Assembly: GCF_048403405.1 (NCBI RefSeq)
Contig: NZ_CP183129.1
DNA from: Escherichia coli
GTDB lineage: Bacteria > Pseudomonadota > Gammaproteobacteria > Enterobacterales > Enterobacteriaceae
DNA length: 64,000 bases
Direction: 5' to 3' (one strand)
Made by a program: the position numbers. Positions 9,001 to 12,000 of the stretch are shown piece by piece. Within the stretch, counting starts at the first letter, position 1. Each line of letters opens with the position of its first letter.

Positions 9001-12000
9001 CGAACATACTTCGATCCTCCTCTTTCCAGCCTTGTTGCAATTAAATAGTATGGCTATTTTTTGAGCAAAATGCTGTCCAGGATCAATTCTTCACGCCGAA
9101 TTAACAAAATTTACATTTCCTTCGCCTCCGCCAGCGAATGAGATTGCGATACAAATTTTATCCAGAACTCTGTAGAATCCCTGCCCTGACCTTTCCTGTA
9201 ACTGAATGTTTTTTAAGCTATGAGCAAAGTAACTCCCCAGCCGAAAATCGGCTTTGTTTCCCTTGGCTGCCCGAAAAACCTTGTCGATTCAGAGCGTATT
9301 CTCACCGAACTACGCACTGAAGGTTATGACGTGGTACCGAGCTATGACGATGCGGACATGGTGATCGTCAACACCTGCGGCTTTATTGACAGCGCGGTAC
9401 AAGAATCACTGGAAGCCATTGGTGAAGCGTTGAATGAAAACGGCAAGGTAATTGTGACCGGTTGTCTGGGGGCAAAAGAAGATCAGATCCGCGAAGTCCA
9501 CCCGAAAGTGCTGGAAATCACCGGGCCTCATAGCTATGAGCAGGTTCTGGAGCATGTTCATCACTACGTGCCAAAACCGAAACACAACCCATTCCTGAGC
9601 CTGGTGCCAGAACAAGGTGTGAAACTGACGCCGCGTCATTATGCCTATCTGAAAATTTCTGAAGGCTGTAATCACCGCTGCACCTTCTGCATTATTCCGT
9701 CTATGCGCGGCGACCTGGTGAGCCGTCCGATTGGCGAAGTGTTAAGTGAAGCGAAACGTCTGGTAGATGCTGGCGTTAAAGAGATTCTGGTGATCTCGCA
9801 GGATACTTCCGCCTATGGCGTTGATGTTAAACATCGTACTGGCTTCCACAACGGCGAGCCGGTAAAAACCAGCATGGTCAGCCTGTGCGAACAGTTATCG
9901 AAACTGGGGATCTGGACACGTCTGCACTACGTTTACCCTTATCCGCATGTGGACGACGTCATCCCACTGATGGCAGAAGGCAAAATCCTGCCGTATCTGG
10001 ACATTCCGTTGCAGCACGCCAGCCCGCGCATTCTCAAACTGATGAAGCGTCCGGGTTCTGTAGATCGCCAACTGGCGCGCATCAAACAGTGGCGCGAAAT
10101 CTGCCCGGAACTGACCCTACGCTCAACCTTTATTGTCGGCTTCCCTGGCGAGACGGAAGAAGATTTCCAGATGCTACTCGACTTCCTGAAAGAAGCGCGT
10201 CTGGATCGCGTTGGCTGCTTTAAATACAGCCCGGTTGAAGGTGCAGACGCCAATGCCCTGCCTGACCAGGTTCCGGAAGAAGTGAAAGAAGAACGCTGGA
10301 ACCGTTTCATGCAGCTGCAGCAGCAGATTTCCGCCGAGCGCCTGCAAGAGAAAGTGGGCCGTGAAATTCTGGTGATTATCGACGAAGTGGACGAAGAAGG
10401 CGCGATTGGTCGCAGCATGGCAGATGCACCGGAAATCGACGGCGCGGTTTATCTCAATGGTGAAACCAACGTTAAGCCGGGTGATATCCTGCGTGTGAAA
10501 GTCGAGCACGCCGATGAGTACGATTTGTGGGGTAGCCGGGTTTAATTAATCTTAAGGCAGATCTAACAAGGATATTGTTCTTCGATCTGCCTCTGCTACC
10601 CTTCCCGATGTCCTACCCTTACGCACAAAATCCCCTGACGCATAAATCGAGAAAAATGAATCGTACTCGAGGCAACTCTCACTTTTTCACACCAAATTAA
10701 AGTTTTGATCGCAATTACTTGAAATAAGCGTAATGGTTACTATAGTAAACATTACCACAAGGATGGATGTATGGGTGTGTATAAGGCAAGACGATTCAGC
10801 CAAAGCACGAAAAAACTTGGTATTCACGATAAAGTTCTCATGGCTGCCGCTGAAGAAGTGATGCAGGGCATATGGGAGGCTGATTTAGGTAGCGGTGTCA
10901 TCAAAAAACGTTTACCCCTCCAACAAGGAAAGAGTGGTGGAGCCAGAACAATTATCTTTTTTAAATCAGCAAATCATGTGTTTTTTTATGATGGTTGGTC
11001 CAAGAGTGGTCTAAGCAGTAAAGGAACCAAAGAAATCGAAGATGATGAACTGGCGGCCTACAAAAAAATGGCAAATGCATTTCTGGCCTTTAGCAATAAG
11101 CAAATAGAGGATTTGATCGAAACTGGCTTTTTGATTGAGGTGAAAAATGAGCGATAAATTACAAATGATGCTGGAAGATGCAAAGGAACTGAATGCACTG
11201 GGCCTGATGTCTGATAGTGAAGTTGATGCCATTGCCGTCATGGTCAAAGCTCGTGAAGTCAGCGCCCGTATAGCCAAAGTCAAATCAATGACGGGTGAAG
11301 AGATCAAAGCCATCCGCACCCGATACGGCATGTCACAATCCGTGCTGGCACATACAATGGGAATGTCAAAAGAAAGTGTCTCGAAATGGGAACGTAATGA
11401 AATAAAACCGAGCGGCCCGGCATTACGTATTTTGAATACATTGGCAATAAAAGGGCCGGAAGTTTTTGCAAAGTAAAATGTTTGCAAATGATTTACCACA
11501 TTCATTAGTACCCCTTGATTAAGGGGTACTAACACTATTCTAATTCTACTGCCAGCTAATCTGCGCCCTGCCGTTTTTCTTACTCTTATACAGCCGCTCA
11601 TCCGCCAGCATTTTCAAGCGTTCGACGGTAGTACATTCATTTGAATGCGCTACACCGATACTGGTGCTTAAATTAATGCTTCCCACCTGGAAATGAACGA
11701 TTTCTTTTAGAATCGATAGCAACTCTTCCAGCGTTCCACCCGTATAAATCACCGCAAATTCGTCACCGCCGAAGCGGTAGACTTTACCTTTATCTACCGG
11801 GATCTGTGATTTAAGGATTTTCACCACTTTCATCAACACTTCATCGCCCAGCAAATGACCGAAGGTGTCGTTGATGTTTTTGAATTTATCGACGTCAAAC
11901 AGGCACAAATAACCGCCTTTTTCCGGTAGCGCTTTTAAATCTTCGTCAAAGGATTTTCTGCCCATCGCTTTGGTCAGGTCGTCCAGGAACGCCGAGTTAT

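What the first reader, a model, noticed from the sequence alone, without database searches (positions are those of the whole stretch)
10730..10755. 26-bp palindrome overlapping the toxin-antitoxin promoter
GTAATGGTTACTATAGTAAACATTAC is self-complementary at 24 of 26 positions and ends 15 bp before the toxin start codon, where an autoregulatory operator for the HTH antitoxin (alone or in complex with toxin) would be expected.
Basis: seen in the sequence. Interest (0 to 1): 0.35.

Follow-up and report, generated by a model that had tools for sequence, protein, structure and literature searches.

The report
Operator of an E. coli HigBA2-like toxin-antitoxin
The 26-bp palindrome is real and is very probably the DNA site where the antitoxin of a strain-variable E. 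coli toxin-antitoxin pair sits on its own promoter to shut it off, which is an ordinary arrangement for such gene pairs, although this particular one has not been described.

Summary
GTAATGGTTACTATAGTAAACATTAC lies at 10730-10755, is self-complementary at 24 of 26 positions, and ends 15 nt before the toxin ATG at 10771. About 0.02 palindromes this good are expected by chance in 64 kb.

It fills the gap between a -35-like TTGAAA (10719-24) and the predicted transcript start, and its centre is the -10-like TATAGT (10741-46).

The genes behind it are a toxin-first pair inserted between rimO and dgcI. The pair is absent from K-12 and present in 1138 of 5426 complete E. coli genomes. By Pfam, profile search and predicted fold they are distant relatives of V. 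cholerae HigB2/HigA2. The footprinted HigA2 operator occupies the same promoter position.

The strongest evidence is comparative. The motif cGTAA-N4-[T/G]AC-TATA-GT[A/C]A-N3-TTACg recurs upstream of homologous pairs at 29 distinct sites across many Enterobacterales genera. Almost all of these sit in unrelated genomic contexts, and the flanks are unconserved. A matrix built without E. coli scores the window site at 37 bits, against 6.8 for the next best hit.

The palindrome is best read as two 11-bp units, GTAA-N3-TTAC, sharing the central TATA.

This is a new member of a known kind, of modest interest, and binding has not been tested.

The parts
10551..11546 (.). Strain-variable segment carrying the toxin-antitoxin pair. 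It replaces about 42 bp of the K-12 rimO/dgcI spacer.
   Evidence: Comparison with MG1655. The segment is present in 1138 of 5426 complete E. coli genomes.
10555..10592 (+). Imperfect hairpin (15-nt arms, 87% complementary) just after the rimO stop. It may be the rimO terminator in carrier strains.
   Evidence: I2. It has no T tract and was not called by the terminator scan, so its function is inferred only.
10719..10724 (+). -35-like hexamer TTGAAA.
   Evidence: Promoter scan. A -35-like hexamer matching at least 4 of 6 positions sits at 16-18 nt spacing in 14 of 29 homologous promoters, against 15% in a shifted control.
10730..10755 (.). The 26-bp palindrome, the proposed operator of the antitoxin.
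   Evidence: Conserved motif in 29 distinct loci. A PWM built without E. coli scores it at 36.9 and 37.6 bits on the two strands. The exact 30-mer is present in 1125 of 1138 carrier genomes.
10730..10740 (.). Left 11-bp unit GTAA-TGG-TTAC.
   Evidence: Exact GTAA-N3-TTAC occurs 24 times at TA promoters and 4 times elsewhere in 275 kb. Loci L007, L015, L016 and L049 carry a single unit next to the -10.
10741..10746 (+). -10-like hexamer TATAGT, at the centre of the palindrome.
   Evidence: It is TATAGT or TATAAT in 27 of 29 distinct homologous sites.
10745..10755 (.). Right 11-bp unit GTAA-ACA-TTAC. It overlaps the last two bases of the -10 and the predicted transcript start.
10771..11157 (+). 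Toxin gene, 128 aa, PF06296 (HigB2 family of the RelE/ParE superfamily).
   Evidence: RefSeq calls it a 'type II toxin-antitoxin system RelE/ParE family toxin'.
11147..11476 (+). Antitoxin gene, 109 aa, with N-terminal helices and a C-terminal XRE-type HTH. It overlaps the toxin gene by 11 nt.
11505..11532 (.). Perfect 12-bp-stem hairpin between the antitoxin stop and the dgcI stop. It is a probable bidirectional terminator.
   Evidence: (I5). Its function is inferred from position only, and it was not called by the terminator scan.

Best explanation
The palindrome is the operator of a HigBA2-type toxin-antitoxin operon. A sigma-70 promoter (TTGAAA, 16 nt, TATAGT) drives the toxin gene and then the antitoxin gene. 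The antitoxin dimerises through its C-terminal XRE helix-turn-helix domain and binds the symmetric site that fills the -35/-10 spacer, the -10 hexamer and the start point. RNA polymerase is thereby excluded and the operon represses itself. The unit of recognition is most likely the 11-bp inverted repeat GTAA-N3-TTAC. The E. coli site holds two such units (10730-40 and 10745-55), 15 bp apart centre to centre, sharing the TATA of the -10. That would take two dimers. By analogy with V. cholerae and A. baumannii HigBA2, the toxin-bound complex probably also binds, acting as co-repressor. Shown here: the sequence anatomy, family membership by sequence and predicted fold, and evolutionary conservation of the site. 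Inferred: binding, repression, stoichiometry and the role of the toxin.
For: Palindrome statistics come, and the promoter overlap.

Family assignment. The toxin matches PF06296 at E 7e-33. The toxin profile hits HigB-2 chains and no other PDB family at significant E-values (E 4e-4). The best fold matches of the antitoxin model are HigA2 entries 5jaa, 8a0x and 5j9i, the last at rmsd 1.2-1.3 A over 61-62 residues. The best fold matches of the toxin model are HigB2 chains 8a0x_C and 5ja8_E.

Precedent. The HigA2 operator is a single inverted repeat with a 24-bp footprint running from after the -35 across the -10, and HigA2 represses a reporter (PMC11006873). A. baumannii HigA2 represses and HigB2 co-represses (PMC5906591). 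A crystal structure exists of the HigB2-HigA2 tetramer on operator DNA (8a0x title).

Comparative evidence. Across 29 distinct homologous promoters, information content is 1.2-1.8 bits at GTAA, ACTATAGT and TTAC, against 0.0-0.4 bits in flanks and internal spacers. The recognition helix SVSKWER is invariant in these antitoxins. A PWM built without E. coli gives 37 bits at the window site against 6.8 for the next best hit. Every hit of at least 15 bits in 275 kb of related loci lies at a TA promoter. Almost all of these loci lie in other genomic contexts. Solo antitoxins in L044 and L047 keep the motif directly upstream.

Unit structure. Exact GTAA-N3-TTAC occurs 24 times at TA promoters and 4 times elsewhere, with 4.2 expected by chance. 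Single-unit promoters exist in L007, L015, L016 and L049. MqsA, the next-best structural relative of the HTH domain, binds AACCT-N3-AGGTT, which also has a 3-nt spacer (PMC4894380 abstract).
Against: No binding, footprint, transcript-start or reporter data exist for this locus, and no paper on it was found. The central TATAGT would be conserved for promoter function alone, so only the outer GTAA/TTAC and the AC/GT flanking the TATA argue specifically for a protein site. The V. cholerae operator has a different layout (7-N5-7). All four of its base-contacting residues differ here: R68, E71, N72 and R77 align with E76, S79, K80 and E85. The precedent therefore supports position and logic, not sequence or stoichiometry. 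In about 12 loci the inner quarter-sites are GAC/GTC rather than TTAC/GTAA, which fits a globally symmetric 26-bp site as well as it fits two units. Two intact but distant loci, L050 and L054, show only a weak version of the motif.
Confidence: 0.8

Rival explanations
1. It is an operator, but a single 26-bp two-fold-symmetric site read as a whole. One antitoxin-toxin assembly would contact the outer CGTAA/TTACG and the inner AC/GT, rather than two independent 11-bp units each taking one dimer.
For: Mirror-pair complementarity is 23-29 of 29 at the outer GTAA/TTAC (pairs 2-5 with 27-24) and the central ACTATAGT (pairs 11-14 with 18-15), against 8-19 of 29 in between. In the GAC-type loci the left and right halves are mirror images while each half is a poor palindrome on its own. 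V. cholerae uses a single operator site, and a HigB2-HigA2 tetramer-DNA crystal structure exists.
Against: Promoters with only one GTAA-N3-TTAC unit next to the -10 exist alongside intact gene pairs (L007, L015, L016, L049). The outer half-sites are 22 bp apart, which is too far for one small XRE dimer built like HigA2, whose half-sites are 12 bp apart (inference).
Confidence: 0.25
2. It is only a promoter. The symmetry is a by-product of an AT-rich -10 region and no repressor binds.
For: The centre of the palindrome is the -10 hexamer, which must be conserved anyway.
Against: Positions outside any sigma-70 element carry 1.1-1.8 bits: GTAA in the spacer, AC just upstream of the -10, and AA and TTAC downstream of it. 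Neighbouring positions carry about 0 bits. The -10 keeps a non-consensus G (TATAGT) in 22 of 29 sites, which preserves the AC/GT symmetry. Chance expectation for such a palindrome is 0.017 per window.
Confidence: 0.05
3. It is the binding site of a host regulator unrelated to the cassette.
For: None specific. The cassette lies next to the c-di-GMP genes dgcI and pdeI.
Against: The motif travels with the cassette through many genera and unrelated neighbourhoods. It occurs once per locus, always at the TA promoter. It has no second copy in the 64-kb window.
Confidence: 0.04
4. It acts as a nucleic-acid structure: an RNA hairpin or terminator for rimO read-through, or a recombination or insertion site of the cassette.
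For: It is a palindrome inside a strain-variable insert downstream of rimO.
Against: The RNA fold is -7.6 kcal/mol with z = -0.47 against shuffles, and no U tract follows. Most of it lies upstream of the predicted start. The insert boundaries are at 10551 and 11546, about 180 bp away from the palindrome. Its distance to the toxin start codon is nearly constant across loci.
Confidence: 0.02

Closest known systems
Vibrio cholerae higBA2 operator bound by HigA2 (PMC11006873; PDB 8a0w and 8a0x)
   Same: Toxin-first operon. PF06296-type toxin. Antitoxin with an N-terminal toxin-binding segment and a C-terminal XRE HTH dimerisation domain. Inverted-repeat operator lying between the -35 and across the -10.
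   Different: The V. cholerae site is one 7-N5-7 repeat (TGTACGC N5 GCGTACA) bound by one dimer. Here there are four GTAA/TTAC quarter-sites in 26 bp. All four base-contacting residues differ. The proteins share only 22-28% (antitoxin) and 11-15% (toxin) identity in structural alignment. The toxin here is 128 aa, against 110-113 aa for the HigB-2 chains in the PDB.
E. coli MqsA and its palindrome AACCT-N3-AGGTT in PmqsRA (PMC4894380)
   Same: XRE HTH antitoxin of a toxin-first pair. Short palindrome with a 3-nt spacer. The HTH part of the antitoxin matches the MqsA family profile (TIGR03830, E 2e-12) and the MqsA fold.
   Different: There is no N-terminal zinc-binding domain, and the TIGR03830 score of 47 bits is below the 61.8-bit cut-off. 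The toxin is PF06296, not MqsR. The half-site sequence is different.
Acinetobacter baumannii plasmid HigBA2 (PMC5906591)
   Same: Same toxin family and gene order. The antitoxin represses its own promoter and the toxin acts as co-repressor, which is the regulatory logic predicted here.
   Different: In the passages read that paper gives no operator sequence. It is plasmid-borne rather than a chromosomal insert.

Membership tests
HigBA2-type type II toxin-antitoxin module (PF06296 toxin with HigA2-like antitoxin) | Toxin gene first, antitoxin gene second, translationally coupled | tested here: met
   Toxin at 10771-11157 and antitoxin at 11147-11476 on the same strand, with an 11-nt overlap.
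HigBA2-type type II toxin-antitoxin module (PF06296 toxin with HigA2-like antitoxin) | Toxin belongs to Pfam PF06296 and resembles HigB2 | tested here: met
   113.8 bits against a cut-off of 27, over the full profile length. The toxin profile finds HigB-2 chains at E 4e-4, and no other PDB family scores better than E 0.3. The best Foldseek matches are 8a0x_C and 5ja8_E, with TM 0.51-0.60. The relationship is distant, at 11-15% identity.
HigBA2-type type II toxin-antitoxin module (PF06296 toxin with HigA2-like antitoxin) | Antitoxin has an N-terminal toxin-neutralising segment followed by a C-terminal XRE HTH dimerisation domain | tested here: met
   HTH_3 at residues 53-94. The model has two N-terminal helices followed by a five-helix HTH domain. 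The best PDB fold matches are HigA2 full length (99-100 aligned columns) and its C-terminal domain (rmsd 1.2-1.3 A). Neutralisation itself was not testable.
HigBA2-type type II toxin-antitoxin module (PF06296 toxin with HigA2-like antitoxin) | Inverted-repeat operator between the -35 and across the -10, bound by the antitoxin | tested here: inconclusive
   Position and symmetry are met, and conservation is met. Binding was not testable with these tools.
HigBA2-type type II toxin-antitoxin module (PF06296 toxin with HigA2-like antitoxin) | Ribosome-dependent mRNA cleavage by the toxin | not testable with these tools
   This needs biochemistry. It is only stated for the family in PMC11980606, Table 1.
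MqsRA | Antitoxin with an N-terminal zinc-binding (CxxC) domain, scoring above the family cut-off | tested here: not met
   TIGR03830 scores 47.1 bits against a cut-off of 61.8 and matches only profile positions 51-122. PF15731 scores 20.6 against 30. The 109-aa sequence contains no cysteine.
MqsRA | Toxin of the MqsR family (PF15723) | tested here: not met
   The only Pfam match of the toxin is PF06296.
Intrinsic terminator or structured RNA | Stable GC-rich hairpin followed by a U tract, or folding better than shuffles | tested here: not met
   Not called by the terminator scan. Fold energy -7.6 kcal/mol with z = -0.47.

The most novel reading that the evidence does not exclude
The antitoxin family recognises a portable 11-bp unit, GTAA-N3-TTAC. 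Different lineages would then tune autoregulation by carrying one unit, two units, or two units with weakened inner halves around the -10. Solo antitoxins that keep the operator (L044, L047) would be toxin-free transcription factors in the making. In E. coli, two dimers 15 bp apart on roughly opposite DNA faces could be bridged or released by the toxin. That would be a stoichiometry-sensing switch different from the single-site 'fuzzy' mechanism of V. cholerae HigA2.
Probability: 0.2. Interest if true: 0.5.

Novelty: new member of a known kind. Interest (0 to 1): 0.3.

Why it matters
The work gives a precise, testable operator, with a motif defined across Enterobacterales, for an unstudied toxin-antitoxin pair. 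About a fifth of complete E. coli genomes carry the pair, including O157:H7 (ECs_5399 and ECs_5400 in Sakai). It also suggests that HigA2-like antitoxins use more than one operator layout. For general biology this is an expected feature of type II toxin-antitoxin operons, not a surprise.

Tried and rejected
- **RNA structure.** Folding the region as RNA gave no energy beyond shuffles, so an RNA element was rejected.
- **Other copies in the window.** A search for further copies of the 26-mer found none within 3 mismatches. A full-site PWM scan found nothing above 6.8 bits.
- **Single-unit matches in the window.** Exact GTAA-N3-TTAC matches at 18362, 33591 and 42918 were considered as possible extra targets. 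The best of them, CGTAAGTATTACG in the ompX-rhtA spacer, is core genome: 4744 of 5426 genomes carry it, against 1138 that carry the cassette. There is therefore no co-occurrence, and the idea was dropped.
- **Residue-to-base covariation.** I looked for covariation between antitoxin residues (K75 or V75) and inner quarter-site type (TTAC or GAC). L036 and L027 have near-identical helices but different sites, so no clean rule emerged.
- **Direct PDB search.** phmmer with the toxin alone found nothing. The profile search was needed.
- **Literature.** Searches by locus tags, protein accessions, COG4737 and higBA2 found no paper on this E. coli locus.
- **Loci without the motif.** These were checked as possible counter-examples. 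Most are 5'-truncated toxin remnants that have lost the promoter region.

Full report
**1. Observation**

The sequence GTAATGGTTACTATAGTAAACATTAC is at 10730-10755. Its reverse complement differs at two positions that form one mismatched pair, so 12 of 13 arm pairs match. It ends 15 nt before the ATG at 10771, and an AGGA lies in between.

Only three spacer-less palindromes of this quality occur in the 64-kb window. Markov simulations expect 0.017. The other two lie just after stop codons and look like terminator hairpins.

**2. Setting**

The window is E. coli chromosome: yliI, bssR, rimO (9220-10545, +), then two small genes, then dgcI and pdeI on the minus strand.

- K-12 has only a 46-bp rimO/dgcI spacer. 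The segment 10551-11546 is an insert relative to K-12.
- The insert is present in 1138 of 5426 complete E. coli genomes, including O157:H7 (ECs_5399 and ECs_5400 in Sakai).
- The first gene (10771-11157, 128 aa) matches Pfam PF06296 'RelE' over its full length at 114 bits. According to PMC11980606, this is the family that holds HigB-2.
- The second gene (11147-11476, 109 aa) overlaps the first by 11 nt and has an XRE HTH at its C-terminal end.
- A profile of 20 toxin homologues finds HigB-2 chains in the PDB (E 4e-4) and nothing else at significant E-values.
- The antitoxin finds P22 c2, HigA-2 and, more weakly, MqsA.
- AlphaFold models (pLDDT 89 and 85) have V. cholerae HigA2 and HigB2 as best PDB fold matches. 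The HTH domain superposes on the HigA2 C-terminal domain at 1.2-1.3 A.

The pair is a distant member of the HigBA2 kind of type II toxin-antitoxin module.

**3. Promoter**

The consensus scan finds TTGAAA (10719-24), 16 nt, then TATAGT (10741-46), matching 10 of 12 positions.

The palindrome begins 5 nt after the -35, has the -10 at its centre, and reaches the expected start point about 7 nt after the -10. A protein bound there would exclude RNA polymerase. There are no transcript-start data, so the promoter is a consensus-level inference.

It gains support from the homologous loci. There the central hexamer is TATAGT or TATAAT in 27 of 29 distinct sites. A -35-like hexamer matching at least 4 of 6 positions sits at 16-18 nt in 14 of 29, against 15% in a shifted control.

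**4. Comparative test**

Antitoxin homologues at 44-81% identity keep an invariant recognition helix, SVSKWER. If the palindrome is their operator, it should therefore be conserved.

A scan of one genome per species returned 55 loci. I located the toxin start in each by tblastn and read the upstream DNA.

- A 28-nt motif, cGTAA-N4-[T/G]AC-TATA-GT[A/C]A-N3-TTACg, lies 40-53 nt before the start codon at 29 distinct sites.
- The genera include Kluyvera, Siccibacter, Pantoea, Erwinia, Pectobacterium, Photorhabdus, Xenorhabdus, Proteus, Providencia, Morganella, Ewingella, Rouxiella, Kosakonia and others.
- Information content is 1.2-1.8 bits at GTAA, ACTATAGT and TTAC. It is 0.0-0.4 bits in the flanks and in the internal spacers.
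- A weight matrix built without the E. coli sequence scores the window site at 36.9 and 37.6 bits on the two strands. The next best hit in 64 kb scores 6.8 bits.
- In 275 kb of related loci, every hit of at least 15 bits is at a TA promoter, one per locus.
- Only two loci share the rimO or dgcI flanks. One of them is E. coli DNA in a mis-binned MAG. The motif therefore travels with the cassette.
- In L044 and L047 the toxin gene is missing and the motif sits directly before the solo antitoxin. This ties the motif to the DNA-binding partner.
- Within E. coli, 1125 of 1138 carriers have the exact 30-mer.
- Loci without the motif are mostly remnants that have lost the toxin 5' end and the promoter.

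**5. Anatomy of the site**

The 26-mer contains GTAA or TTAC four times: GTAA-tgg-TTAC, TATA, GTAA-aca-TTAC. It can be read as two 11-bp inverted repeats, 15 bp apart centre to centre, sharing the TATA of the -10.

In favour of the 11-bp unit:
- Exact GTAA-N3-TTAC occurs 24 times at TA promoters and 4 times elsewhere in 275 kb, where 4.2 are expected by chance.
- Four loci with intact gene pairs (L007, L015, L016 and L049) carry a single unit, often extended to TAGTAA-N3-TTACTA, next to the -10.
- A 3-nt spacer is also the layout of the MqsA site AACCT-N3-AGGTT (PMC4894380). MqsA is the second-closest structural relative of this HTH domain.

Against it: in about a dozen loci the inner quarter-sites are GAC/GTC. 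There the global mirror symmetry is kept better than the symmetry of each half. I could not resolve stoichiometry. I rate two dimers as somewhat more likely than a single assembly.

**6. Mechanism**

Most likely (0.8) the site is the autoregulatory operator. Antitoxin dimers bind it and block the promoter.

The precedents are:
- V. cholerae HigA2, with a single inverted repeat, a 24-bp footprint from after the -35 across the -10, and repression of a reporter.
- A crystal structure of the HigB2-HigA2 tetramer on operator DNA.
- A. baumannii HigBA2, where the toxin is a co-repressor.

The four base-contacting residues of V. cholerae HigA2 are all different here. That agrees with the different operator sequence. 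It also means the precedent supports the logic and not the details.

**7. Rivals**

- A promoter-only reading does not explain conserved non-promoter positions, nor the retained non-consensus G of TATAGT.
- A host-factor site does not explain why the motif moves with the cassette.
- An RNA hairpin or terminator is not supported: z = -0.47, no U tract, and the site is mostly untranscribed.
- A cassette junction is excluded because the insert boundaries lie about 180 bp away.

**8. Novelty and score**

No paper on this E. coli pair or its operator was found. The kind of element is textbook for type II modules. This is a new member of a known kind, with a modest twist: a different operator layout from the V. 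cholerae prototype, and a motif defined across Enterobacterales. Interest is 0.3.

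Noticed in passing
window 44005-44030: Perfect 26-bp palindrome CTGCATGGTTATGCATAACCATGCAG, extendable to about 30 bp. 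It starts 11 nt after the stop of the rhtA-like ORF (43095-43994), between rhtA and dps by synteny with O157 Sakai. It is probably a terminator hairpin.
   Followed up: partly
window 11505-11532: Perfect 12-bp-stem hairpin TTAGTACCCCTT gatt AAGGGGTACTAA between the convergent antitoxin and dgcI stops. It is a probable bidirectional terminator brought in with the insert. It replaces the K-12 hairpin caggccgg...ccggcctg.
   Followed up: partly
window 10551-11546: Presence/absence polymorphism. The toxin-antitoxin segment replaces about 42 bp of the K-12 rimO/dgcI spacer. The right junction is at the dgcI stop codon, which is TAG here and TAA in K-12. No flanking direct repeats were obvious.
   Followed up: partly
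window 42916-42930: CGTAAGTATTACG, a unit-like palindrome (GTAA-N3-TTAC with matching C/G flanks), lies in the ompX-rhtA divergent spacer. It is core genome, present in 4744 of 5426 genomes, so it is not linked to the cassette. Its function is unknown.
   Followed up: partly
L044 2441-2468 and L047 2455-2482: In Silvania confinis and Xenorhabdus khoisanae the toxin gene is absent. The operator motif lies directly upstream of a solo antitoxin gene.
   Followed up: partly
L003 (whole locus, 1198 bp): A contig labelled 'MAG: Collinsella sp.' is 100% identical to the E. coli rimO-dgcI insert, including the dgcI 3' end. It is probably E. coli DNA mis-binned into an actinobacterial MAG.
   Followed up: no
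L035 about 3260 and L042 about 3259: Two Photorhabdus loci share an extra exact unit, TGGTAAAGTTTACTGA, about 750 nt downstream of the antitoxin gene. It was not examined.
   Followed up: no
L059 (E. coli BS-01, NZ_CP172816.1): A degraded version of the locus. The toxin is annotated but no antitoxin gene is annotated between it and dgcI. Identity is 92.7% over only 47% of the insert.
   Followed up: no
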